Assembly: GCA_003971905.1 (NCBI GenBank)
Contig: RSEE01000005.1
Coordinates: 620,001-684,000, forward strand
Source: Moniliella sp. 'wahieum'
Lineage: Eukaryota
Length of the DNA stretch: 64,000 bases
Direction of reading: 5' to 3'
Shown: positions 7,700 through 27,000 of the stretch, one piece after another
Position numbering within the stretch: the stretch's first letter is position 1
Layout of the letters: the number at the start of each line of letters is the position of its first letter
Translations under genes and position numbers: made by a program
The notes under the pieces: generated by a model
Told to the model about the DNA's origin: nothing
The model's database searches: none
The model's input: only the letters and a program-made list of their open reading frames with translations

Positions 7700-9373
7700 C
7701 AAGAGGCGATTTCCATTACGCTTGTACGCCCCCGGTCGGTTTGGCTTTGGGTTGGGAACGAGTGGTGCGACCCGGCGTTTGAACAGCTTGCTCAGCCCCG
7801 AGGGGAAGGGGAAGAGAGGGGGGGGGTGGCCGCAGCTGGTGGGGGCTCTTGTCCTTGTTCTTGTTCTTGCTCTTGTTCTTGCTCTTGCTCTTGCTCTTCC
7901 TCTCAGTGGGGGTGGGGGGCGAGCTGGCCAGACCTCGTGGCGCAGGCGCGGTGGGGCTTGCGAGCGGGTAGCTGAGGCAGCAGGGCGGGATAAACTGGGA
8001 CAAGGGGGGTGCGAAGGCGGAAGTGGGTGGTGCGGTGCCCATGGCAACCGACAAGGGAGAGAGGGCAAGGGAGTTGGGTGGTTGAAGTTGGGTGGGAGGG
8101 TTGGAAGAGCTACTGGGCGAGGAGGTGGGTGGAACAAGGACGCTAGCAAGCGCAGGCACTGCCAACCCTTCCTTTCCGTCCTTACAGGGCACTGCCAGGG
8201 GGGGACGGAGAGCTCAGTGTGAGGGGTTGCTTCTCCCCCGCCCATGCCGAGAGAGCCACGGGAGGTATTGGACAGGCCTTGGGAGACGGCTTGCGATGGC
8301 GCCTGCGATGATACGGACGATTGATGCGACGTTGAATGCGCAAGGACGCGGGTGACACTGCGAGGGCCACGGAAGGGGACGAAGGTGGCTTGGACGGTGT
8401 CGGCGACGGAAGCGGCGATGGCTCGTCCTGTTTTCGCCGCAGACCAAAGACCCCACGACGCGCCGCCGGCCCGAGGTGGCGACAGAAGTGGTGGAGCGAT
8501 TGGCGAGCCGGTTGGACCACGACCCGCTCCACCGAAGGTGACGACGCTGTAGCGACCTGGACAGCGTATCGGGCAAGTTGGCCTGGCTGGCCGAGGGGGT
8601 GCCGGCACGGGAGGCAGCACGGGACCCAGCGTGGGAGGGGAGCGGATTGGCTAAACGGAGTGGACCAGGCGGACTTTTGGGAGGAACCGCCACCGCCGCT
8701 TCTTGGACGGGGTCATGAAGCGGCATGCTCATCACTGCTCGCCGAATCTGGTGCACATCAGCCGAGTGACGCGCCTCGCTCGGACGAAGTGGGGAGGACT
8801 GACCATGTGGCTCGCACGTTCCTTACCCTTACCCTTGCCCTTGCCATTGTCCTGTGGCTCGTTCTCCTACCACGGGAGGCTAAACTCGAGGCTAACGGGG
8901 AGCCGGGGTCGAGGGGCAAGCGCCGGCCCAGGGAGGGATAGGGGCCACGCTGACGGGCACCACATCGGGGCCCATCCAGTACCCCGCGCGGGCGGGAGAG
9001 GAGCGGGTGGTGCGCGGGAGAGAAGAGCGGGTGCGGAAGGAGAGGGCGTCCAAGCTGCGTGTTTCGGGCGAAAGAGTAGGGCGGGCAAAGCAGCGTGGGG
9101 CGAGGCAGAGGTGCTGGCGCGGGGGGATCGGGAGCGGAGGTGGGTGTAGGCGGCGTTCTCGGCGGCGAGTTCGCAGGCGAGCTGGTCGATCTGGCGCGTG
9201 TCATTGTATCGGCGGCGGCGGGGGGTGGTTGGTACTGGTGGGGGCAGCGGGCCGGGGAGGGGGAGGCAGGTCGTCGAGGGGCGAAGGGGCGGGGGGGGGC
9301 ATGCTGGCGTGCAGCGTGGGGAGCAGGTACGACGCGTGCGGGCCGGGGCGGGTGGGAGGCGCTGGGAGCCATG
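7700..9373 (-). CDS. Hypothetical Pro/Ser/Arg-rich protein (frameshifted; boundaries uncertain)
   Basis: Chain of overlapping minus-strand ORFs starting MAPSASHPP after a C-rich leader, with one globular-looking stretch (RRYNDTRQIDQLACELAAENAAYTHL). No family recognised. Confidence 0.3.
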
Positions 9374-10271
9374 GGCGGAGGAGGGGGCAGCGAAGGGGGT
9401 CTGCTGGAAGTGGAGGTGATCTGTGCGATGTTTCTGTTGCTGCCCTGCGTCCTGGGTCTGATTAATGAGCGCTTGGGTGCGCCGCCACAGCCCGCGTGAA
9501 GCTGCACTGGGAGCGTGAAGCTTGAAGCCTGGGCCGCAGTGCAGGGATCGGCGGATCGGCGCTGTGCGCACGCGTGCGCAGCGGGCCTGCATCATCGATC
9601 TGCATCACCCGTCGCGCATCGCCATGGAGCCGCAGCACTGGGCCCGTGCTGTGCCGCAGCTGAAACGGGCCGTGCCCGCTTGGCGCCACTGTGGGTGCGG
9701 AGGCTGTCCCCCATGCGCCCGTCTGCGTCTGGTGCGGCTCCGCGGGGCGGGCACAGCGCCTGTGCTGGACGGCGGATGGGGCCGGCGGGGGCCGGATGCA
9801 GCCGCAGATTAAGCGCTTAAGCGCTTAAAGCTTAAGCACTGGAGATCGGAGATTGGGCGCAGACAGACGCAGAGCCACAGCGCTGCCATCGGCCCATCTC
9901 CTCTGCACAGGCCAGCCGACTGGCTCGCACCCTTGCGCAGCCCCAGCATTGGACGGATGCCACCCCACCTCCATCTTGCGCGGGAAAGATATGATACGCC
10001 TGCGGATGTGGGACAACCAACGTCCTGCGCTCTTCGTTCGACCGCAATGCCTGTCATCCTAACATCTCCACGCTGCAACAGGAAAAACAGTGCTAAAAGA
10101 TCTGTTCCAACCATACGCAAGGGAAAACGTTGAATCCATTTACAGTTGTTGTGGGCAGAGAGGGCCATCGCGATTGCCAATCAGACCCAAACACATCTTG
10201 CTGGCTAGCAGCAACAGAGAGAGCAAGAGCGGGGTGCTAAGAACCAATCAGTTAGGCTTGTTGCAGCAACT

Positions 10272-13200
10272 CTACCTCCTTGCTCGTCCAGGGGTAGTGC
10301 GCTTGGGGATCGAGCCGGCCCAGGGCAAGCGGCTAGAGCCACGGAGCTGCTCGTCGATCGCTTGCGCGCACGCCCGGCCTTCGTGGATGGCCCACACCAC
10401 CAACGACTGGCCCCGACGAGCGTCGCCGCACGCCCAGACGCTCGGCACCGAGGTGCGGAATGGACTGGCACCCTTCGAGTCGGCAGCCAAAATGTTCGAG
10501 CGGGCATCCTGCTTGAGCGCCAACGACTTGATTGCCTCATTCTCCGGACCCAAGAAGCGAGCGCCAGCAGACACAAGTCACACGGCCACCGCTTCTCTGT
10601 GCCGGGCACCTTGTTCATCTGCCACTTGCCGCTCGCGTCCTTCTCCCAGGCAACCTCAACCGTGTGGACAGCGACCAGGTTGTTCTCCGCGTCCTTCTCA
10701 AACTTGGTCGTCGAGATTTGGTAGTGGCGCGGGTCTTGACCATAGTGGTCCGTCACCTCAGTGTGGCCATAGTCGGTGCGGAAGATGCGAGGCCACTGGG
10801 GCCAAGGGTTGTCGCGCGCGCGCGACGCTGGCGGCTGGGGCAGCAATTCAAAGTTCACCGACGGCCGCGCGGCGGACGGAAGTACCAATGCAGTCATTGC
10901 CCGTGTCGCCACCACCAATGACAATCACATTCTTCCCCTTGGCATTGTAGAAGTTGCCGTCCTGCAGCCCCGAATCCAACAGCGACTTGGTGTTGGCACC
11001 CAAAAAGTCCATCGCGAACAGCACCCCGTTCGCATCGCGGCCATCCACCCGCAAGTCACGCGGCCAGGTGGCGCCCGTGGCAAAGACCAGTGGTCAAACT
11101 GCTCAGCGAGCTCCGCCGCATCCACGTCGCGTCCCACCTCGACGCCACACTGGATATCCACACCTTCGGCTTGGAGCAGCTCGGCACGACGCATGACCAC
11201 TTCCTTGTCCAGCTTCATGTTGGGAATGCCATACATGGCGAGACCAAACGGACGGTCGGCGCGTTCAAAGACAGTGACCGAGTGACCCGCCTTGTTGAGT
11301 TGATCGGCACATGCCATCCCAGCCGGACCGGAACCGACAATGGCCACCGTTTGCCCGTCCGGTGCGTCGGCGGCTGCGGCTTGACCAGGCCCAGTTCAAA
11401 CGCCTTGTCAATGATCGCTCGCTCCACCGTCTTGATGCCTACGGGCGATTATGATGCCCAACACGCAAGCGCCTTCGCACGGGGCAGGGCACACCCGGCC
11501 GTAAACTCGGGGAAGTTGTTGGTGGACATTAGCTTCCAGTACGCTCTTCCCAGCGACCGTTGAACACCAAGTCGTTCCACTTGGGGATCACATTGCTGAT
11601 CGGGCAGCCCGTGTCAGATTGGCAGAAGGGCACACCGCAGTCCATGCAACGCGCCGTTTGCACCTTCAGCTCGGCATCGGTCAGGCGTTGGACAACTCCT
11701 TAAAGTCCTTGGCGCGCACGTTGGGTTGACGGTACTTCTCCGCGCGACGACGGTACTTTTTGAACCCACGAAGCTTGTCCAACTTGGCTAGCGCCGTCTT
11801 GGCCCTCTCGGCATCCAGCAATGCATCTTCAATGTCCACTTCGGCCGGCTCGGCCTTGGCGGCGGCCGCCTTCTCTTGCTCCTGCTGTTCTTCCTCCAAC
11901 AGGCTGACTTGAGAGCTGTGCCGCGACAGGGTACCCAGCAAGTCGACGTGGCTCGAGCGTTTCTTCTCGGCCGCAGCCTTGGCCGCCTCCTCCTCCAACA
12001 CACGCTTGTAGTCGTATGGCATGACCCGCACAAAGCGCGGCAAAAGATGATGGAAGTCGCGGATCACATGCTCGGCCACCGTCGAGCCCGTGTAGTGGCG
12101 GTGGTTCTCAATCAGGTTGCGCAGCTCGGCAATCTCGTGAGGGTCCTTGACCGGGCCCAGCTCAACCATCTCGGTGTTGCACCGCGAGTAGAAGTCGCGG
12201 TTCATGTCCAGCACATATGCAATGCCGCCACTCATTCCGGCCGCAAAGTTGCGCCCAGTGCTGCCCAGCACGACGACGCGACCACCCGTCATGTACTCGC
12301 ACCCGTGGTCCCCGACTCCTTCCACCACCGCATGCGCCCCTGAGTTGCGCACCGCAAAGCGCTCGGCGGCAATCCCACGGAAGTAGGCATTTCCGGTCGT
12401 TGCTCCATACAAGCACGTGTTGCCGATCAGAATGTTCTCCTCTGCCTTGAACGCCGAGTTCTTGGGAGGGTAAATGATCAGGCGGCCGCCCGACATGCCC
12501 TTGCCCACATAGTCGTTCGCATCGCCCTCCAGCTCGAGCGTGATGCCCGGCGCCAAGAACGCACCGCACGACTGACCCGCCGATCCCTTAGCATTGATGT
12601 GGATCGTGTCCCGCGCCAAGCCCTCCTCGCCATACAGCTTGGAGACACGGTAGGACAACGTGGCCCCCAGTGCCCGGTCGGTATTGACCACCTCGCAATC
12701 CACTTGGACCGGCAAGCCCTCCATCAACGCCGGCTCAGCTTCTGAGATGAACTTGTTGTCCATCCGTACGTACAGGCGGTGGTCCTGCTGACGCACCTTG
12801 TACGTCGCCGCACCCGGACGCAGCTCATGCGCCGGCTTAAGGATCGCGCTCAGGTCCAGCTTGGAGGCCTTGACGTTGCGGCCCGTGTAGTCAGTCTTGA
12901 GCAGATCCGACCGACCCACCATCTCATTGATCGTCCGCAGCCCCAGCTTGGCCATGATCCCCCGCAGCTCCTCGGCCAGGTAGTAGAAAAAGTTGATCAC
13001 ATGCTCCGGCTGGCCAGCAAACTTTTCACGCAAGTCGGGGTCTTGGGTCGCAATGCCCACTGGGCACGTGTTGAGGTGGCAGTTGTGGGCCACCACGCCA
13101 TCGGCCAGCTGGAAGTGACCGCCCGACACTTCCACACCACGGTATTCCCGCTCGCCGGCCAACTTGGCCAACGCAAACGGCGCCACCTCCAGCTCCGTCG

Positions 13201-16200
13201 CCGAGGCGGGCATCCGCTTCCGCTCATACAGCAAGTAAGGTTGGATCTGCACCAAGCCCGCGCCGCTGAGCGTCACCACCGAAGCACCCTGCTCCGTAGC
13301 CACGCCACTGGTAAAGATACCCAGCTCTTGCGCCAGCAAAGCCACATCCTCCACCAGACCCGCATGGCCTTCGGCAGTCTGGGCAAAGACGTACTGTCCA
13401 CTGGACGGAGGAAGGATCCATCCGTGTCGAGCAGACCGGCCAAGATGGCGCGCTTGGCCTCGGCCGAAGGGAAGGCGTGCAGAGGGATGCGGCGCTCCTT
13501 CTTGCCAAGCAGACCCAGTTCCGCCAGCTTGGCCTCCAACGGGTTCCACCCATCGGCAACGACAGTGTGCTTAAACATGTCGGCACGAGCAAATGTGGTG
13601 GAGCCGACGAGGTCACCAACAGCGGTCACCTTACGGCTGACCACGGTGAGCTCCGCTGCACCCTCAGGACGCGTCGCGTTCAGCTGCTCCACGTACTTGT
13701 ACAGCCACACGAGCATTTCGGCATCTGATGCAGCCAGCGTAGCACGGTGCGCATCGCCATCGCCCAGCCAAGCGCCCACAAAGTACGCCTCGTCTTGCGC
13801 CGCCCGCGCTTGCGCCTGCGCGACTGGGCGGAAGAGGCGGAGCTTGTCGTGCGAGTGGCCAATCAGGTCTTCCGCCGTCACCTCGAACCGGTCACCGTCC
13901 AAGACGAGGCTTGGCTCCACAAGGCCGTGGTGCTCCGACAGGAGCAAGCTGTTCACCAGCTGCGCCTGCTCCTCGGACGCCAGCGAGAGCGAGACCTTGT
14001 GCAGACCACCACAAGTACACTCGCTTGCCTCTTGGATCTTTTCCTTGAGGAGAGCAAGGCGGCCTTGCAGCTGGGCCCCGACGCGGATAAAGGGCTGCTC
14101 GGCCGGCGCGGGCGTTGCAGACGCCTTCGACTCTTCGGCCAACACCAGGGCATCGACGGGGCCCAGGGCTACTGTGTCGGCGGCAGGCTCAAGGGCAGGG
14201 GTGCCAGGGGCGGTCGAGGAAGACGCATCGGAACCTTGGTCGCTCTCAAGCTCGGGCATGGTCGTGCCCAGGTCAAAGTGAACGTGGGACAGTGGACGTG
14301 CGGTGGATGCAACTGCTCGGGTCAAACGGCGAGGCGCCAGTTGCATGGGCACGGTGCCGGTGCCCGCTGAGCAAGTCCTTGGTGATCATCTCCGAGCTAA
14401 GCACAGCCGTCAGGTCAGCATACCGTCTCAAATGGGGAAATGACAACCAACGTACCCAATCTTGTCGTCCATATCGTCTTCGCGGTCCAAGTCTTGGACG
14501 TCGCCCAGCGATACTAGGTCGTGCATCATGCACGACGCCGCGTGCTCCGCCGCCTGGTCCAGCTTCTTGTCCGACACACAGCGCGTGTAAAACTCGACCG
14601 TCTTGTTCTCCACCATCGGCTCCACACCCACAGCAGCCAAAGAGAGAATGTGGTCGGGCGTGCACTCAAAGTGCTTCTCTGCACCGTCAATGGTGTAGCT
14701 CACCTGGTACATCGTTCCCGTTTCCACGTCGCCCACCGACATGACCAGGACGGGGTTGTTGCTGTCGTCCAGCAGAGCATCACCCAGGGCAATGTCGCCA
14801 ATGCGCTTCGTCGCACCACCAACGGTGCGCACCAGCGTATCGACACCCAAGCACTTGCGCATCATGATGCACCCCATAGCAATCAGAGGAGTGGTGGCAA
14901 ACCCATACTCTTCGGCACCCAGCAGCGTAGCAATGGCCAAGTCGCGACCGGTACGCAACTGACCGTCAGTCTGCACTGTTACACGGCCACGCAGGTCGTT
15001 CAACACCAGCGTCTGGTGCGTCTCGGCCAGACCCAACTCCCAGGGCAGACCGGCGTACTTGATGCCAGTCCAGCGCGACGCACCTGTACCACCGTCGTGA
15101 CCCGAGACCAGCACATGGTCCGCCTTGGCCTTGGCCACACCCGCTGCCACAATCCCCACACCCACTTCGGATACAAGCTTGACGCTCACCCGTGCGCGCG
15201 GGTTGGCACACTTGAGGTCGTAGATGAGCTGCTTCAAGTCCTCAATCGAGTAAATGTCGTGATGGGGAGGAGGGGAAATAAGACCGACGCCGGCAGTCGA
15301 GTGACGCGTACGCGCAATCGACGGCGACACCTTGTGGCCCGGCAGCTCTCCACCCTCACCCGGCTTGGCACCCTGCGCCATCTTGATCTGCAGCTCGTCA
15401 CTGTCGGCAAGGTAGTTGGACGTGACGCCAAATCGGCCGGATGCAACCTGCTTGATCTTGGACCGCAGCGAGTCGCCATTGGGGAGCGGGATGGAGCGTT
15501 CGGCATCCTCACCACCCTCACCCGTGTTGGATTTGCCGCCGAGACGGTTCATGGCAATGGCCAAGGCCGAGTGAGCTTCCATCGAGATGGAGCCGTACGA
15601 CATGGCACCAGTGCAGAACCGCTGCACAATCTCCGTCCAGGGCTCGACTTGGTCCACCGGGATGGCACGCACCTTGCTCAAGTCAAAGTCGAGCAAACCA
15701 CGAAGAGTGGTGGCCTTGATGGATTGAGTGGCCTGCTTGCTGTACTGGTCCCAGGCAAACTGGTTCTTTTCCCGCGCCGCATCTTGCAAGTTGGCAATGG
15801 AAACGGGGTCATTCACGTGCGCTTCACCGCCATCGCGCCAGTGGTACTCGCCACTCTCGGCCATTACAGGGGGCAGCACCGTGTCCTGCGAGGGCCAGCC
15901 GCGGTTGTGGAACTCAAACGCGTCCATGGCCATCAGTTCAAACGTGATCCCTTGATACGGCTCGCCGTGCCGGCAAAGCAACGATCAATCACCGAATTGT
16001 CCACACCGAGTGCTTCGAAAATCTGCGCACCCTTGTACGATGCCAGCGTCGAGATGCCCATCTTGGACATCACCTTCAGAATCCCGCCATCGACACCGTG
16101 CAGCCAATTGTCAACCGCCGTTTCGAGCGTAATGTCCTCCTTGATCAAGCCTTCGCGGTGGACCTTGGCCATCACCTCAATCGCAAGCCAAGGGCAGATG

Positions 16201-18542
16201 GCGTCGGCGCCATAGCCAGTCAGAGCGCAGAAGTGGTGCACCTCCCGTGCCTCAGAAGTCTCAATCATCAGGGCCACCTTGGTACGCGCCTTGTTGCGGA
16301 TCAGGTGGTGATGCACTCCCCGATGGCCACGAGCGAGCTGAGGGCAACCCGCTCTGCGCTGACCGCACGGTCCGACAAAACCACAATGGGTGTAGCCCTC
16401 GGAGATGGCAGCGCTGGCTTCGGCACAGATGCGGTCAATCGTCCGTTCGTACCCAGTAATGCCATCGGCCTTGGGGAAGGTAATGTCAATCACCTTGGTC
16501 TTCCAGTCCTCGACAGCTCGTGGATGCGCTTGATCGCGTTCATTTGCTCAATCTTCAGCATAGGCGAGGGAAGCAAGAGGCGGTGAGCCTGCTTCGGGTT
16601 CATCTCCAGCAAGTTGCCCTCTGGGCCGACATACGTCTCCAGCGACATGACCACCGACTCACGAATCGGGTCAATCGGAGGGTTGGTCACCTGCGCAAAC
16701 AGTTGGCGGAAGTACTCATACACCTGCCGCGGAGCATCAGCAATGCACGCCAACGGTGCGTCGTTGCCCATCGAGCCAAGGGCTTCCTTGCCAGACGCGC
16801 CCATGGGCAGCATAAGCAAACTGATCTGCTCATTGGTGTAGCCAGCCGCCTTGATGCGCGGATCGGTGCTGAGGGTCGTCGCGTCGAGCTCGGGGGCGAT
16901 TGGAGCATTGGCACGGGTACGGCTGCAAATGTCGGGCAAGTGCAGCAGCTGCGCTTCGAGCCACGCGGCAAAATCGGCCGACTGCGCCGTGGTCATCTTC
17001 AGCTCCTTGTCATCGACCAGCCGGCCCTCCTTGGTGTCCACCAACAGCATCCGCCCCGGCTGCAACCGGCCCTTGGCCAGCACCGTCGCCGGATCAATGT
17101 GGATCGTGCCCACCTCGGACGCGCAAATCATAATGTCATCGTCGGTGATCACGTACCGGCACGGCCGCAAACCGTTGCGGTCCAAGTTGGCGCCACAGAA
17201 GCGGCCATCCGAGAAGGCAAACAAAGCAGGTCCATCCCAAGGTTCGGTCATGCAGGCCGCCCAGCGGTAAAACGCAACCTTCTCCGGCTCCATCTGGTCC
17301 TGCTTGCCTTGCCATGCTTCGGGAATGAGCAGCATGATGGCTTGCGGCAGCGTCAACACGCCATTGACCACCAACAGTTCCAGCACATTGTCAAATCCGG
17401 CCGAGTCCGATCCTCCCGCTCAATGATCGGGTAGAGGCGGTCGAGGTCGGTGCCAAACACTTCGGAGCGAAGCATGCCTTCACGTGCACGCATCCAGTTT
17501 TTGTTGCCGCGGATCGTGTTGATTTCACCTGGTGGCAAAGCGTCAGTACAGCAGAACATGCCATGGAGTGCAAGAGGGGAGGTGCGTACCATTGTGGGCT
17601 GCCCATCGCATTGGTTGGGCACGGTCCCAAGAGGGGAAGTGTTGGTCGAGAAACGCGAGTGCACCAACGCAAAATGCGACTCGTAACGGGCATTGAGTAG
17701 GTCATAGTAGTAATCGTACACCTGCCGGGGCGCGAGCTGGCCCTTATAGACAATGTTGCTCGGAGAGAGAGAGCAGATGTAGAACCAGTTGGCCAGCCCA
17801 ATCTTGTGCGTGGCCGACTTGCGCAGCACATACAGTTGGCGATTGAAGTTCTTTTCATCAAACGCAGCCTCAGTTTGTGCTGGCGCCGAACCAGGACCAT
17901 AGTGCTCCTTGGCCACAACGAAGGGCTGGAGGGTCTTGGGTTCCTTGCTGAGGGCCGCTGGGCCAAGGATGGAGTTGTCGACACTGACATTGCGCCAGCA
18001 CAAGACACGCAGCCCTACCGAGTCGGCGACCGACTCAAAGATCTTTGGTGGTCCGCGCGCAGTCGGTCGTCCTTGGGAGTAAAGAAGACGTTGCCCACCG
18101 CGTACTGGCCCTCGGGGGAAGCGTGATGCGAAAGTCCATCTCGAGCTCGCGCGGGGAAGAACGAGTCGGGGATGCCGGTCATGCAGCCAGCGCCGTCACC
18201 ATCGCGCGCGTCGGCGCCTGTGGCACCGCGATGGGTCATGTTGCAGAGAACAAACTTGGCATCCGACACAATCTTGTGGCTCGGCTTGCCCTTGATGTGG
18301 CAAATGAAACCCACACCGCAGCTGTCCTTCTCGTTTTCGGGATCGTACAGGCCCTGGGCAGCCGGGAGCGAATCGCCGCCGTAGGACGCGTGCGAGCGGA
18401 TGACATTGTGGAAGCCATTGTCGTCCAGGTTGGCCGAGGTGGTCACCTCGGCGTGGTCGCCCCGCGGAGGAGCGACGAGGGGGTCGTTCAGGTCGGGCTG
18501 TTGGGGCTGCACGGGCAGGGCGTCGACGCGGACGGCGACCAT
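10272..18542 (-). CDS. GLT1: NADH-dependent glutamate synthase (fused alpha/beta), intein-containing
   Basis: EKDSCGVGF (Ntn Cys), [78 protein letters not shown]-domain [13 protein letters not shown], beta-subunit [21 protein letters not shown] and [14 protein letters not shown]. Intron 17529-17589 splits AHNG/EIN. 3' end approximate. Confidence 0.97.
13082..14853 (-). mobile_element. Intein with LAGLIDADG homing endonuclease inserted in GLT1
   Basis: Removing it restores the conserved [16 protein letters not shown]. Block A CLGVDTLV, block [12 protein letters not shown] (TxxH), block [11 protein letters not shown] (13756-13785), block [11 protein letters not shown] (13417-13446), block [15 protein letters not shown], blocks [23 protein letters not shown] followed by Cys+1. 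Confidence 0.95.
14397..14455 (-). other. Spliceosomal intron inside the intein coding sequence
   Basis: Donor GG|GTACGT, branch GCTGAC/CCTGAC, acceptor TTAG; 59 nt. Unspliced read-through meets in-frame TGA stops. Confidence 0.8.
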
Positions 18543-20219
18543 GGTAACTCGCGGGCGGCGGCGGGGGTGGCGGGGCGGGACAGAAGGAGGGCGGTGGGGG
18601 GGGGGGGAGGGGGTGGAGGACGAAAGGAGGAGCAATCCAGCGGCTGGACGCAACGCAGCGGTGGTTACGCCGCTACTCTTTATACGACGGAGAGAAAACT
18701 CGCATTCCAGCCACGGCAGTCTCCGTGCAACGCCATTATTAATGGGGCAGCACTGCGCCAGTTTCCTGTGTGGGCCGGAGCTGCATCCGCAGGCTCCCGC
18801 ACGGCGCGGCACAGTGGGCGCTTGGCCCCCCGGACAGGGCGGTGCACGGCGCCAGTGTGTGATGCAGCCGGTGCATGGCGCCAGTGTGTGACGCAGCCAG
18901 TGCCCGCCGCCCAGAGAGCCTGCACGGCGGCAGCCCCGCCCCGCCCCGCCCGCAGGCAGCCAGCGTCGCCTGTGTGCGTCGTCGGTGCCCACCCATCCGC
19001 ACCGCTCGAATCTCAACCGGCGGTTGCGTCGCCCTGTGTGGACGCCCATACCCACCCCGTCTTTCCAGGCGCTAGCCTCACCGGCACCCGACCCCTTCCC
19101 CCTCACGGGCCCACACACTCGCCACAGGTGCGGTGATCCAGCGAGTGGGGGTGAAAAGACATCGCTTCCAGCCGCCCATGCTTCCGGCTGGCGACCATAA
19201 TGAGTTTGGTTGTGGGCACTTTTACTCCTGAGAAGATGGTAGAGCCAAAGGGGGGGGGGCTCCCCTGGCCGTGTGTATTGCGTCGCACTGGCATAGCCTC
19301 GAGCTCTCGAGCGTTTTGGAGCTGTGACGCCTGGCGTGTGGATGGAGCATGCTGTAGTGCCAATCTCCTGTGTCCTTGCACAGACTGGTTGGACAAAGTC
19401 CCGACGGCTACTGCGTCTCCGTCTTTACGTACACACCCACCAATGCGGGGCAGAGCAGCATGGTGCACCGGTGCACCCCTCTCAGATGTCCACGAGTCGC
19501 AGCCTGTCGCAGCCGTCGTTACTGTCCCCGGCGCAACACAAGCCTCATTGCCCTCCTTAATCATCCGCCGGACCCGGGAAAATACATCTCCGCTGGCCTG
19601 AATCTAAAAGGACTGCCCCCCCAAGGCCCAAGGCTAGGGCGCTAAGGCCAAATTACGCCCTATTAATGGCTATCCCTTCCAATAGTACTCGCACTCTAGG
19701 AAGCCTATCTAGTCCGAGTCATAACCCCAAGGGCCTCACGGGCTCGTTTTTACTATGGAGCTGAGGCTGAGAGAGGTGACCGGTGAGATCACCTCTCTGA
19801 GAGCCCCGCTCACGGACTTTGTCCTATCCAACCCTACGGGGCTGTTGCAGGTTGTTGTTGTCCACACTATAGTCCGCTTCACCAGGCGACGGACTGGTTG
19901 ATGCGCCAGGACGAGAACTGCCTGGCCCGGGCCGCACCATAGTTCCGGACGGTCACCGGCTGTTGCGGAACTAGCCCGAAATCCGTGCCTGTCCGTACCC
20001 CGGTACCGGTGGCCACCAGCGCCACAACTTGTGCGCTTTCTGGACCGGGATCTATCGATCTATCTACTGCCGGGATGTTGAAAACCACACAAAGAGTGCA
20101 TTCGGGCCCTCCCCCACTCCAGGTGAGGTGGGGCGAGAAAAAACTGGCCAAAAACGAGTATTTGGGACCCGGTAACCGGGAACCACCGGGACCAGCTCTT
20201 GGTTCTGGCGTGTCACAAA

Positions 20220-22287: not shown

Positions 22288-22963
22288 TTATGCGGTCCAC
22301 GCGCGTGCAATCGTCTCGGTTAGACCAATGTCGTTGGTGTTGAGCTCTGGGAGGCGCAATGCGGTCAGTCGCAGCCCACCAGGACCAAGACGGGAACCAC
22401 GTACCATACAGGCCATACAGCGCCGCTGCCGAGGTGGCGCGCCAGGTCCAGGACAAAACGCCGCCAGTTTGGGCGTCTTGCGCTTGGGGAAGTAGTCGAA
22501 CAGCACTTGGCTCACACCATAGTGCGCGTGAATGACAAGCGCGAGCGACAGCGCGCCATCCAGCGCGCCCGACGCACCGTGCTTGACTGTCGACGCCGTG
22601 ATGAGCGGGACCAAGGAAACGGCGACCACCCGCTCAAACGTCCACTCGTACGAGCCGTGCGCCGCGTTCGAAGGCGGGTACTCGGTCGGCTCGTTCACCG
22701 TCCCCTTAATGTAGGACGCGTGCGGGACTTGGGACGCCTGCACTTGGCGGTACGCCGCTACGGGTAGGACACGCCCAGCCATGCCAACGGTCAGTACACG
22801 GCACGAATCGCACATACGGCCCAGCCCGCGTTCAGCACCACGGGGCGAGGGGACAAGACGCACACGTAGCAAACGAGCGGGACGACCCGCCGGCCAGCAA
22901 GCGCAGGTGAGGCTGGGTGGCAAGCGAGGCCAAGCGGAGAGGAGCGTTGCCGTTGGCGAGCAT
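22288..22963 (-). CDS. SDH4: Succinate dehydrogenase cytochrome b small subunit (CybS)
   Basis: IKGTVNEPTEYPPSNAAHGSYEWTFERVVAVSLVPL, HAHYG..FDY, NTNDIGLTETIARAW; Arg/Leu-rich mitochondrial presequence; short introns. Confidence 0.9.
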
Positions 22964-24072: not shown

Positions 24073-27000
24073 TCAAAGAAGATACCCAGAAGGTACGACG
24101 CCCGTCTGGCCAGCATTGTTTTGGGCCAACCACCAGTCAGGGTCGCTGGATTGCAGGACGCGAACCTCTTGACCAGCAACTAATGGCAGCTCGGCCGGAC
24201 TCGACGCCGCATAGTCGTACCGGGCATGTGCCACAAACTCTTCGTCTTCTCTGGTCCCCGCGGCATCCTGCAAGGCAGACTGGATGCTGGGCCCCGTGTC
24301 CGATTCGGCGTCCGACTCGTCCAACGGGAAGCGAGCTCCAAAGGAGCCAAAGCCGGGACCGACTCGAGGCGCAGAACTGTCGGTAGAGTAGACAGGTCCA
24401 CTGCTGTACTCGCCCGACGCATTGTGGCCGGACTCGCCCGTGTCGCGTGGCCGTGGCTCGTCGCCACTCGTCGTGCCCGTCGTGGTGGAATCGCGCCCGG
24501 CGGGCTGGAGCAAGGTGCGGACGCCCACGGGCGCAAGGGGCGCGGCCCCACTGTCGGTAGAAACCAAGTACCCCGTCTCTCCACTTGTCGACGTTTGGTG
24601 GCCGGGTTCGCGACGGCCAACGAGGGGGACAGAACCGCGGGTGGCATACCCCGAGGTCGAGTAGCGGCCTGGGTCCATCGACGCAGATGCAGACCCACTC
24701 CCCCGCCCAGTTCCCGAGTTGGACGTTTCCACCCCTGTGCCTGTCCCGGTGCCCGTCCCGGTAGCATAGCCCGAGCTGGTATTGTATCCCGACCCGTACC
24801 CAGTCTCGGTGCCGTCAGAAATGTGTCCGCCCTGGACGGCAAAGCTTTGACGCCAGGGTCGGCGGCGGACGACTCGGAACTTCGATAGCCGTGGGTGGGG
24901 TGGTCTGGGTCGTCTGCAACGATCCGGATCGGCAGAGCGCCCACGATGCTCTGCTGGGAGTGAGAGCTGTCTTGGTGAGCCGAGTGGTTACTGACGTCAT
25001 GCTCCGGTCCCAACAGCGATGCCGCCGATGCTTGGGCCGAATGGGAATGCGAGCCGGACTGATCCTCGGGGGTCGATCCCGACGTGTTGGGTGGGTCATA
25101 CACCTCGGGCATCCCGTGCCAGCTCTTGATGTGTGCGCCCTTAGCCCCAAGCACGGTCTCAGCCTCGTTCTTCTCGTACCCGCTGTGTACGGGCGCCGCG
25201 CCAATAAAAAGACTTGCTCATCGGCCGCTGGCTGAAGAGCCGTCGGTCGTCGTGCAGGGTCGGATTGCGACGAGCGACGACTAGGAAGCAAACGCGCTGA
25301 AATGCCCGACCTCGTTGACGAAGGGGTCACATTCCGAGGTGATCGACGAGACAGCATCCGAGCCGGCCAGCCGGGTAAGCGCCAGAACTCGCTCAGTAGC
25401 TGCTTCAAGCGTGTTGAGCAGCGCATTTGCGTCCGACTTGGGGACATTGGGAGGAGTTTGCCTCCGCGCCGCACGGTTGGCTGCCGAGTTGCCAATGACG
25501 GCGAATGGACTGGGTTCATTGGCCAACCGACGACGGAGAATGAGCGCCAAGAGAAGAGCAAGAATGATGAGGATCAAGACGATGCCAAGACCAATAAAGA
25601 TGCTGATGCAAATCACGATGCCAACAGACAAATGGTGGGCATTGGCAAAGCGCAACGCATGGGTAGCACCATACGCCAATGCCCGCAGGCCCGCATTGTC
25701 CGTGGATCCAGCAGCAGCGACCGTCTTGAGCCAGGGTGTCCATCCGTTGGCGCCGTCATAAACAAAGCGCCTAGTAACCCGTAGGCTGCCGTTTGTAGCG
25801 AACCGCTGACGAGCAACACACGGTCCCGCTCCAGCGCCCCGTTCATCCCATTCCGGCTTTTGGATAGAGGCAGCACAGTGAGTTGAGAAATGCGGGTACC
25901 ACCCACCAGCTGTGCGCTTTGGTTGCCTGCGCCTCCATCCAAGAGAGAGAAGCCCGTGCCAGTCCAGATTGCCAAGTACGGGTTCTCACTCGAACCAGGA
26001 GCAGAGTCGTTGAACCTGAGCTGGCGTCGCCGGCAACCAAGATACGGGATGGACTGTAGTCGTCCACAGCCAGAGCGGCAGCAGGCCAGGAGCTTGGTTG
26101 GCACTTGATCCGATCGAGCCGTAGGCTGTCCAAGAAGAGTTACCAAAATGCCAACCTGCCAGAGCGGCATGGACCCCTCCGACTTCGAGCGAACCAGCGA
26201 CAACCAGAGTATTGGCCTTGTTCTACAAGGGAGATGGAGAAGAAGTAGTTAGTCGACATGTGCTTGGGGCAATAGAAACAACACGTACCTCAGAAAAGCC
26301 CACATCCGTCACATTGCCCGTCAGACCCGGCGCTTGGGACCAGCGGTGTTGGTTGGTATCCAAAAGACAGATCCCATTGCATGGCAGACTCCCAGCGGTA
26401 TCAAACTGTCCAGCAACGACGAGGGTGGTAGTGCTTGGACGAAGCACCACACGACGCACCACCACTTCCATTTCACTGGCAGTCAAGGGAGCAATGTTGG
26501 TCTCCCATGAGTTGGAGGAAAGGTTGTACATGTTGATCCCGCCCTCATACCCAACGTAGACCGAGTCATTGACGACCCTGAGAGAGTGGACCGTGCCCAG
26601 CGTACCCGAGGGGAAAGGGGCAACGCCCACCAACGTCCCGCTTCGGACATCTCCTTCCCCATCCGAATCGGACCCTGAACCAGAGGATGAGGAAGAGCCA
26701 CCGTCCGAACTGGACATGGGATACTTTGCCAAATTAGTAGCGTTGCCCGAAGCAAACTGGCCACCGATGAGCATCCAATCGCCGTGAGGGCCCTTCCAAA
26801 AGGCGGCGGTATGCATGTCGCTTGTAGGCACCAAAGGTGTCATATTTGTCGGGGAGGCACGAGGTGCTAATTCGGACCCAGATGCGTCTGTCACGCCGCT
26901 GCCTGCCAAATGAGACCGTCGATCTGAACCCTTGAGAGAGGCAGTCCAGCGAGCGAGAATGGTGGCATAGTCGGATTTGGGAGGTCGGGTCTCTTTCTTG

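What the first reader, a model, noticed from the sequence alone, without database searches (positions are those of the whole stretch)
14378..14455. Spliceosomal intron nested inside the intein: RNA splicing required before protein splicing
Seen: after ...DDMDDKIG the sequence reads GTACGT...TATGCTGACCTGAC...CTTAG, matching the donor, branch and size of other introns here (e.g. 17529-17589). Unspliced read-through meets three TGA codons between 14430 and 14386. The TAG acceptor (14397, 59 nt) gives [10 protein letters not shown] and needs a downstream indel correction. An AAG acceptor (14378, 78 nt) rejoins the endonuclease frame directly. Inference: an intron was gained within a mobile intein, would travel with it during DNA-level homing, and could regulate both GLT1 and endonuclease output through retention or acceptor choice. 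Introns within inteins are rare, and I know of none described for GLT1.
Basis: partly seen in the sequence, partly recalled or inferred. Interest (0 to 1): 0.85.

Follow-up and report, generated by a model that had tools for sequence, protein, structure and literature searches.

The report
Small intron inside a GLT1 intein
A fungal glutamate synthase gene carries a self-splicing protein insert (intein) whose own coding sequence is very probably interrupted by an ordinary 59-base intron, so RNA splicing must come before protein splicing; this rests on sequence comparison in an error-ridden assembly, without transcript data.

Summary
GLT1 lies on the minus strand with a LAGLIDADG intein (14853..13082) at the known GLT-a site. 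After ...DDMDDKIG come GTACGT, two CTGAC branch motifs and a TAG. Read-through meets three TGA codons.

Three results select the 59-nt intron (14455..14397, TAG acceptor).
- Third-position GC is 0.78 before the donor, at most 0.53 in any frame inside, and 0.81 in the TAG frame after it.
- A 76%-identical intein in a relative's unbroken 1393-residue ORF matches the window from the first full exon codon, in that frame.
- The family's H-[Y/F]-H motif aligns only with the TAG reading.

The 78-nt AAG reading is rejected. The downstream indel correction is in fact two one-base errors (14287 and 13404). GLT1 has many more of these in conserved extein sequence, so they are assembly noise.

No RNA data were available. 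Regulation by retention or acceptor choice has no support. I found no paper describing an intron inside an intein. The closest analogue is small spliceosomal introns in homing-endonuclease genes of nuclear group I introns.

Three earlier notes of this scan report the same nesting on other pieces of this genome.

The parts
10275..18410 (-). GLT1 (NADH glutamate synthase) coding region as far as homology was traced. It is broken by many one-base frame errors.
   Evidence: tblastn of P0016, P0011 and P0003 against the window. Pfam Glu_synthase on the C-extein start.
13082..14853 (-). Intein at the GLT-a site, GCIMMRK|C ... [14 protein letters not shown]. About 571 codons plus the 59-nt intron.
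   Evidence: Translations. Same insertion site in the 8 intein-bearing proteins among 9 GLT1 proteins inspected. Alignment with 14 ascomycete GLT inteins and one CHS intein. Hits at E 1.5e-76 to 2.3e-62 with the relative's intein as query.
14456..14853 (-). Intein exon 1: N-terminal splicing lobe, with Cys1 at 14853-14851 and block B TPDH at 14661-14650. It ends ...DDMDDKI + GG.
   Evidence: GC3 0.78 in this frame. Weak Pfam Hom_end_hint match, E 0.0013, below the cut-off.
14397..14455 (-). Proposed spliceosomal intron, 59 nt, phase 2 (inside a Gly codon, GG|C).
14450..14455 (-). 5' splice site GTACGT.
   Evidence: The same hexamer starts the two other strict-pattern matches at 22404 and 26288.
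14409..14418 (-). Two adjacent branch-site motifs, CTGAC CTGAC. The branch A lies 18 or 13 nt before the 3' end of the intron.
   Evidence: The GLT1 intron at 17589..17529 has TACTGAC followed by 13 nt that end in CAG.
14397..14399 (-). 3' splice site TAG, the acceptor supported here.
   Evidence: The frame after it has GC3 0.81. Identity with P0003 starts here.
14428..14430 (-). First in-frame TGA met if the intron is retained, 8 codons after the donor. Further TGAs at 14412-14410 and 14388-14386.
14378..14380 (-). AAG proposed as an alternative acceptor (78-nt intron). Rejected as the productive site.
14288..14396 (-). Start of intein exon 2 in the TAG frame: [29 protein letters not shown]...
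   Evidence: GC3 0.81 in this frame against 0.54 in the upstream frame. 24 of 36 residues identical to P0003. H-R-H-R aligns with the family's H-Y-H-R.
14286..14288 (-). CCC run holding one extra base (14287). This is the first frame error after the intron.
   Evidence: P0003 runs through without a break, while the window changes frame between 14288 and 14286.
13403..13404 (-). One base missing, the second frame error. It cancels the first, so the 59-nt intron puts the N- and C-exteins in one frame.
   Evidence: P0003 reads DTDGSYLRSSGQYVF. The window reads DTDGSFLR, then a break, then SGQYVF.
13753..13785 (-). First LAGLIDADG motif ([11 protein letters not shown]).
13411..13449 (-). Second LAGLIDADG motif ([13 protein letters not shown]).
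   Evidence: The endonuclease part matches PI-SceI residues 209-327 at E 0.004.
17529..17589 (-). Reference intron of the same gene, 61 nt, GTACGC..TACTGAC..CAG.

Best explanation
A 59-nt spliceosomal intron (14455..14397, minus strand; GTACGT donor, CTGAC branch, TAG acceptor; phase 2) interrupts the coding sequence of a LAGLIDADG-type intein. The intein sits at the known GLT-a site of the glutamate synthase gene GLT1.

Proposed order of events:
1. The spliceosome removes the 59 nt. This moves the reading frame by one register, so that the N-extein, both intein exons and the C-extein form one ORF.
2. The precursor is translated.
3. The intein excises itself. It has Cys1, TPDH, a terminal His-Asn and a Cys+1. 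This yields mature GLT1 and a free endonuclease-type protein.

Without RNA splicing, translation stops 8 codons after the donor, so RNA splicing is obligatory.

Shown by sequence: the signals, the frame change, the loss of coding signature inside the 59 nt, the conservation that starts at the acceptor, and intact splicing and LAGLIDADG motifs.

Inferred: actual splicing of the RNA, protein splicing and endonuclease activity.

The two frame breaks further down (14287 and 13404) are one-base assembly errors, not biology.
For: (1) Signals. The donor, branch and acceptor match the strict pattern. There are 3 matches in the window against 0.31 expected. Size and layout resemble the verified GLT1 intron at 17589..17529.

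(2) Frame-specific GC3. It is 0.78 over 132 codons in the upstream frame before the donor. It is 0.47-0.53 in all three frames inside the 59 nt. It is 0.81 over 36 codons in the TAG frame for 14396..14288, against 0.54 for the upstream frame. Getting 9 or fewer GC-ending codons of 19 at p = 0.78 has probability 0.003.

(3) The relative P0003. Its intein is 76% identical, in an unbroken ORF of 1393 residues that runs to the end of GLT1. After the acceptor, 24 of 36 residues match the window. In the 6 aligned residues before it, 2 match. The 9 residues before the acceptor position (MLPLAFFYS) back-translate to a pyrimidine tract ending YAG, and the ORF starts there. This fits the same interruption in an assembly without frame errors.

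(4) The family motif. H-[Y/F/R]-H-[R/Q/M/K] lies at intein position 135-153 in 15 of the 17 GLT inteins, and in P0147 and P0148. Only the 59-nt reading places HRHR there.

(5) Frame arithmetic. A 59-nt intron brings the N-extein frame into the C-extein frame.

(6) Error rate. GLT1 changes frame with no room for an intron at about 18070, 17655, 17440, 16515, 16385, 16319, 15950 and 10557. At least three garbled stretches lie in the C-extein. That is roughly one error per 500 nt, so two errors in a 1.7-kb intein are expected.
Against: - There are no transcript data. No RNA run was listed, so splicing is not shown.
- The assembly is so error-prone that a one-base error between 14456 and 14431 could also move the frame by the needed register. 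The stated length of 59 could be off by one.
- The relative's DNA and its upstream ORF could not be obtained. The shared intron in the relative is therefore inferred from a protein start, not seen.
- Pfam does not reach its cut-offs on the intein parts.
- The intronic GC3 sample is small (19 codons).
Confidence: 0.8

Rival explanations
1. There is no intron. The 59 nt are coding, an extra roughly 20 residues in a variable linker, and the frame change is another one-base assembly error just after ...DDKIG.
For: The TAG frame is open all the way from 14665 to 14273. One-base errors occur about once per 500 nt in this gene. The region is a variable linker in the family alignment.
Against: No frame has coding-like GC3 inside the 59 nt (0.47-0.53 against 0.75-0.81 in the flanks; binomial 0.003). 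Identity with the relative drops from 24 of 36 to 2 of 6 exactly at the TAG. The relative's error-free ORF begins there instead of continuing upstream. The full set of intron signals lies exactly at the frame change, where about 0.004 strict matches would be expected in 1.8 kb of one strand (scaled). At the observed error rate, an error in those particular 26 nt has a chance of about 5%.
Confidence: 0.08
2. The productive intron is the 78-nt one ending at AAG 14378. The class-0 frame then continues directly into the endonuclease domain, and only one downstream error is needed.
For: It needs one correction instead of two, and it keeps the upstream frame.
Against: 14396..14288 codes in the other frame (GC3 0.81 against 0.54). 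That frame is conserved with P0003 and carries the family H-x-H motif. The TAG is the first AG after the branch site. With AAG, the C-extein frame would still need a further shift.
Confidence: 0.03
3. The frame breaks at 14287 and 13404 are real, so this GLT1 copy is a decaying pseudogene. In that case it does not matter whether the intron is spliced.
For: The breaks are in the sequence as given. No independent reads were available to check them.
Against: Similar breaks lie in the most conserved extein motifs, for example PIIE/GGSDSA at about 17440. Apart from these, no substitutional decay is seen: the in-frame extein blocks closely match P0003, and the intein motifs are intact. Both breaks sit in short C or T runs. 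Other notes on this genome also report abundant one-base errors.
Confidence: 0.06

Closest known systems
Fungal GLT1 (GLT-a) inteins of ascomycetes. Goodwin et al. [quoted passage not shown] Green et al. 2018, PMC5784728, table passage read: 5 GLT inteins, in Pezizomycotina and Saccharomycotina.
   Same: Same host gene and same insertion site (GCIMMRK|C ... [10 protein letters not shown]). Same full-length architecture with two LAGLIDADG motifs. The related CHS intein appears as next of kin.
   Different: Only 35-41% identical to those inteins. The coding sequence is interrupted by a spliceosomal intron, whereas two relatives (P0147, P0148) are single uninterrupted ORFs. The host is said by earlier notes of this scan to be a smut-related basidiomycete (not tested here). 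That lineage is outside the range in Green et al.'s table.
Small spliceosomal introns inside homing-endonuclease genes of mobile nuclear group I introns in myxomycetes (Lian et al. 2022, PMC9548176, abstract read: a 47-nt intron, I-47, removed in vivo from the Didymium squamulosum HEG).
   Same: A very small spliceosomal intron is nested in the ORF of a homing-type selfish element. That element is itself removed from its host gene's product by self-splicing. The endonuclease can be made only after spliceosomal splicing.
   Different: In those cases the outer element is an RNA (a group I ribozyme in rDNA) and the endonuclease is of the His-Cys type. The host rRNA does not depend on the small intron. 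Here the outer element is a protein intein, the endonuclease is of the LAGLIDADG type, and the host enzyme itself depends on removal of the intron.
Introns next to intein insertion sites. PRP8 C-terminal intron: Butler et al. 2006, PMC1508164, passages read. Bathycoccus PRP8 intein/intron exclusivity: Monier et al. 2013, PMC3749507, passages read. Anaeramoeba: PMC10710043, passages read.
   Same: Inteins and spliceosomal introns occur together in one nuclear gene.
   Different: Those introns lie in the extein, or replace the intein at its site. None of the passages I read places an intron inside the intein ORF.
PI-SceI (VMA1 intein of Saccharomyces cerevisiae; PDB 1dfa, 1vde, 1lws).
   Same: Hint-type splicing domain with a nested two-motif LAGLIDADG endonuclease. 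Residues 167-290 of the window's endonuclease part match PI-SceI residues 209-327 at E 0.004.
   Different: Different host gene, no intron, and only weak sequence similarity.

Membership tests
Intein (Hint-domain protein-splicing element), GLT-a allele | In-frame insertion at the same conserved site of GLT1 as known GLT inteins. | tested here: met
   GCIMMRK|C...[11 protein letters not shown]. Of 9 GLT1 proteins inspected, the 8 that carry an intein have it at this site, and P0026 has none. Exteins are continuous with GLT1 homologues.
Intein (Hint-domain protein-splicing element), GLT-a allele | Splicing residues: N-terminal Cys/Ser, block B TxxH, C-terminal His-Asn, and Cys/Ser/Thr at +1. | tested here: met
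   Cys1, TPDH, VVAHN and Cys+1 are all present.
Intein (Hint-domain protein-splicing element), GLT-a allele | Significant sequence similarity to known GLT inteins. | tested here: met
   E 1.5e-76 to 2.3e-62 against 17 GLT1 proteins carrying inteins, with the relative's intein as query. The Pfam Hint model is only sub-threshold.
Intein (Hint-domain protein-splicing element), GLT-a allele | Protein splicing actually occurs. | not testable with these tools
   Needs expression, or mass spectrometry of the ligated exteins.
LAGLIDADG homing endonuclease domain | Two LAGLIDADG motifs with acidic catalytic residues. | tested here: met
   [11 protein letters not shown] and [13 protein letters not shown]. 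PI-SceI match at E 0.004. Pfam Hom_end and LAGLIDADG_3 are sub-threshold on P0003.
LAGLIDADG homing endonuclease domain | Cleavage of the intein-less allele (homing). | not testable with these tools
   Needs an enzyme assay or crosses.
Spliceosomal (U2-type GT-AG) intron | GT donor, branch-site consensus and YAG acceptor at fungal spacing and size. | tested here: met
   GTACGT, CTGAC (twice) and TAG, 59 nt. Comparable to the intron at 17589..17529.
Spliceosomal (U2-type GT-AG) intron | Removal restores one reading frame. The interior is non-coding. | tested here: met
   Frame arithmetic. GC3. Stops on read-through. Conservation starts at the acceptor. This holds once two one-base assembly errors downstream are allowed for.
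Spliceosomal (U2-type GT-AG) intron | Spliced junction seen in RNA. | not testable with these tools
   No RNA run was listed, so read laying was not usable.
Spliceosomal (U2-type GT-AG) intron | Presence at the same position in a related species. | tested here: inconclusive
   P0003's ORF starts 9 codons before the acceptor position with a pyrimidine-rich translation. Its DNA and upstream ORF were not retrievable.

The most novel reading that the evidence does not exclude
This is a genuine spliceosomal intron nested inside an intein ORF, an arrangement I found in no paper. It is shared by at least two species whose inteins have diverged to 76% identity. It would then mark a GLT1 intein that has been resident long enough in a basidiomycete lineage, outside the reported ascomycete range, to gain an intron. 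It would make one enzyme depend on two successive and mechanistically unrelated splicing events. The intron would ride along in any DNA-level homing. Retention of the intron would shut off both GLT1 and the endonuclease at once.
Probability: 0.55. Interest if true: 0.6.

Novelty: new variant of a known kind. Interest (0 to 1): 0.5.

Why it matters
Inteins and spliceosomal introns are the two great classes of 'spliced-out' insertions. Cases where they meet in one gene have been discussed as mutually exclusive or as neighbours, not as nested.

A real intron inside an intein would do three things:
- It would show that a nuclear intein ORF behaves as ordinary coding DNA for intron gain.
- It would give a relative age marker for the intein's residence and for vertical against horizontal spread. 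A copy moved through DNA keeps the intron, and a copy moved through cDNA loses it.
- It would offer a simple natural system where the order RNA splicing, then translation, then protein splicing can be tested on one product.

It also extends GLT1 inteins beyond the ascomycetes, if the host lineage reported by earlier notes is right. The practical lesson is that gene callers and intein surveys based on ORFs or protein sets will miss or truncate such inteins.

Tried and rejected
- Whole genome: none is held for this window.
- RNA evidence: no RNA holder was listed for 11681-19400, so no reads could be laid.
- Metagenome contigs: 270 stretches matched a peptide pattern, but none encodes a relative.
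- Upstream ORF of the relative: not among the best 120 of 8000 GLT1 fragments of 284-907 residues. It is also not among 26 representatives found with the N-terminal intein part, where the best identity was 52%. In an error-free assembly that exon could exceed 907 residues, and would then lie outside the searched lengths.
- My own ORF-based intron scan listed 42 candidates in the window. It missed both GLT1 introns, because the frame errors shorten the flanking ORFs below my 50-codon filter. I did not use it as evidence.
- Introner or repeat origin: blastn-short of the intron with 7-nt flanks found no other copy in the window. The longest other match was 12 nt.
- RNA family in the intron, such as a snoRNA: no Rfam match at E up to 1 in 14250-14600.
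- Gene on the opposite strand: the plus-strand ORF 14094-14744 has no Pfam match at E up to 0.01.
- A second 'intron' at the 13404 break: a GTACGT lies nearby (13394 down), but the next CAG gives only 16 nt, and P0003 is colinear there.
- Literature: five searches for an intron inside an intein gave no such description. The subscription papers that first described GLT1 and CHS2 inteins and reviewed fungal nuclear inteins were not readable here, and supplements were not opened.
- Structure prediction, complex prediction and atlas look-ups were not run, because they would not bear on whether the RNA is spliced.
Full report
**What is at the site.** The gene is on the minus strand. Translation of 15984..13273 gives conserved glutamate synthase sequence up to ...[12 protein letters not shown]. 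It continues with [10 protein letters not shown].... The other frame, 13570..11681, ends the insert with ...[14 protein letters not shown] and resumes with [15 protein letters not shown].... This is the GLT-a insertion site. I inspected 9 GLT1 proteins. The 8 that carry an intein have it at this position, and the ninth (P0026) has none. The insert has Cys1, TPDH, His-Asn and Cys+1, plus two LAGLIDADG motifs, [11 protein letters not shown] and [13 protein letters not shown]. Its endonuclease part weakly matches PI-SceI residues 209-327 (E 0.004). Pfam stays below its cut-offs.

**The observation.** After ...DDMDDKI and GG the sequence reads GTACGT (14455-14450), then CTGAC twice (14418-14409), then TAG (14399-14397). 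An AAG lies at 14380-14378. Read-through in the upstream frame meets TGA at 14430, 14412 and 14388. It reads GTACGC..TACTGAC..CAG, is 61 nt long, and joins AAHNG to EINTIRGN. The strict pattern GTACGT N20-50 CTRAC N8-25 YAG has 3 matches in the window. Shuffles give 0.31 on average, and 1 of 100 shuffles reached 3.

**Which acceptor.** I call the frames by coordinate modulo 3. The N-extein and the first intein part are class 0. The C-extein is class 1. A 59-nt intron moves class 0 to class 1. A 78-nt intron keeps class 0. Four results select 59 nt.

- *GC3.* It is 0.78 in class 0 before the donor. It is 0.47-0.53 in every frame inside the 59 nt. It is 0.81 in class 1, against 0.54 in class 0, for 14396..14288. 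It is 0.75 in class 0 for 14286..13405.
- *The relative.* P0003 is a 1393-residue ORF from another assembly with a 76%-identical intein. It runs unbroken from just before the acceptor position to the end of GLT1. After the acceptor 24 of 36 residues match the window's class-1 reading. Of the 6 aligned residues before it, 2 match.
- *The family motif.* I aligned 14 of the 17 ascomycete GLT inteins with the CHS intein P0004. My pattern did not extract P0009, P0024 and P0025, so they were left out. The conserved D-x-H-Y-H-R-G block aligns with ...LLSGHRHR... of the 59-nt reading and with nothing in the 78-nt reading. A motif count finds H-[YFR]-H-[RQMK] at intein position 135-153 in 15 of the 17. 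In P0024 and P0025 the intein start was not located, so they were not examined. The motif is also present in P0147 and P0148. It is absent in P0151 and in the CHS intein.
- *Position of the AG.* TAG is the first AG after the branch motifs.

The AAG reading is rejected as the productive form.

**The downstream 'correction'.** With the TAG acceptor the window changes frame twice more. At 14287 there is an extra C in a CCC run (class 1 to 0). At 13404/13403 one base is missing (class 0 to 1). P0003 is colinear across both points, with ...ETIQVDFDLGT... and ...DTDGSYLRSSGQYVF.... The two shifts cancel each other.

They are not special to the intein. GLT1 also changes frame, with no room for an intron, at about 18070, 17655, 17440, 16515, 16385, 16319, 15950 and 10557. 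The break at 17440 falls inside the conserved PIIE/GGSDSA block. At least three garbled stretches of the C-extein each need two or more shifts. That is about one error per 500 nt. Earlier notes on this genome say the same. I therefore read both breaks as assembly errors. It follows that the intron length of 59 could itself be off by one.

**Intron or just another error?** The class-1 frame is open from 14665 to 14273. A one-base error between 14456 and 14431 could therefore mimic the frame change. Several results argue against this.

- No frame inside the 59 nt has coding-like GC3. Getting 9 or fewer of 19 at p = 0.78 has probability 0.003.
- The segment is among the 0.3% most T-rich 59-nt windows of the gene.
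- Conservation with the relative begins exactly at the acceptor.
- The relative's ORF, from an assembly with no frame error over 1393 codons, begins 9 codons before the acceptor position. Those residues, MLPLAFFYS, back-translate to a pyrimidine tract ending in YAG (inference).
- A full set of intron signals sits exactly where the frame changes.

I put the intron at 0.8 and this rival at 0.08.

**Is it in other inteins?** The closest representatives outside this lineage are only 43-52% identical in the N-terminal part. Two of them, P0147 and P0148, begin at MRKC and end a few residues after HNCHLNT. That looks like stop-to-stop ORFs on genomic DNA, so those inteins are uninterrupted. This is an inference. 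The intron therefore looks like a gain in the window's lineage, shared with the P0003 species. I could not see DNA for any relative.

**How it would work.** The spliceosome removes the 59 nt. The 2.7-thousand-residue precursor is translated. The intein excises itself, leaving active GLT1 and a LAGLIDADG protein. If the intron is retained, translation ends 8 codons after the donor. That would give the N-terminal half of GLT1 fused to a non-functional intein fragment, and probably an unstable mRNA. DNA-level homing by double-strand-break repair would copy the intron along with the intein. This follows from the established homing mechanism and is not shown here. Nothing supports regulated retention or alternative acceptor use.

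**Other checks.**
- No Rfam family in 14250-14600.
- No Pfam family on the opposite-strand ORF.
- No second copy of the intron in the window.
- No RNA run was listed.

**Literature.**
- Green et al. 2018 (PMC5784728, passages read) list 5 GLT inteins, in Pezizomycotina and Saccharomycotina only.
- Goodwin et al. 2006 (PMC1635734) and Butler et al. 2006 (PMC1508164), passages read, describe introns near intein sites but not inside inteins.
- The same holds for Monier et al. 2013 (PMC3749507) and the Anaeramoeba paper (PMC10710043), passages read.
- The Salmacisia genome paper (PMC10849329, passages read) reports Prp8 and RPB2 inteins in a Tilletiales smut, but no GLT1 intein.
- Five searches for an intron within an intein found nothing relevant. 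Subscription papers on fungal inteins were not readable.
- The nearest analogue is the small spliceosomal introns in homing-endonuclease genes of nuclear group I introns (Lian et al. 2022, PMC9548176, abstract read).

**Earlier notes of the scan.** Three notes (e1-7648744, e1-7642524, e1-7648746) report a 58- or 60-nt intron in a GLT1 intein on other pieces of this same genome, with the same caveats. A sequence look-up found no look-alike window, so I cannot say how those pieces relate to this one. The host being a smut-related basidiomycete comes from those notes. I did not test it.

**Verdict.** The finding is a real and probably functional intron nested in an intein, with the TAG acceptor. 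The frame problems are assembly noise. The regulatory reading is unsupported. It is a new variant of a known kind. Interest is moderate until RNA confirms the junction.

Noticed in passing
window 10275-18410 (minus strand): GLT1 changes reading frame at roughly 15 or more places with no room for introns, including inside highly conserved extein motifs. The assembly has about one single-base indel per 500 nt here.
   Followed up: partly
protein P0149, not in the window: A GLT1 fragment from another organism carries a related intein at a different site, after ...IPKWNELVFN in the C-terminal small-subunit-like domain. This is a possible second GLT1 insertion site, and it is not among the GLT sites named in the passages I read.
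   Followed up: no
proteins P0010-P0023, not in the window: Many ascomycete GLT inteins end in A-N, S-N, E-N, Q-N, R-N or Y-N instead of the usual His-Asn. The window's intein and its close relative keep H-N.
   Followed up: no
proteins P0147, P0148, not in the window: These intein ORFs start at MRKC and stop 5-8 residues after the intein. This suggests extein introns very close to both sides of the insertion site in those species.
   Followed up: no
window 22347-22404 (-) and 26223-26288 (-): These are the other two strict matches to the GTACGT..CTRAC..YAG pattern. They are likely introns of neighbouring genes. The second also joins long ORFs in my scan.
   Followed up: no
window 9000-9600 and 18300-19200: Stretches of 68-74% GC with strong GC skew (up to 0.52) flank the GLT1 region. 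Their nature was not examined.
   Followed up: no
window 14100-14260 (minus strand): The intein linker after the intron is a long low-complexity tract rich in Ser, Thr, Pro, Ala and Glu. It is poorly alignable across the family, so intein length varies from 515 to 665 residues among the 14 aligned GLT homologues.
   Followed up: no
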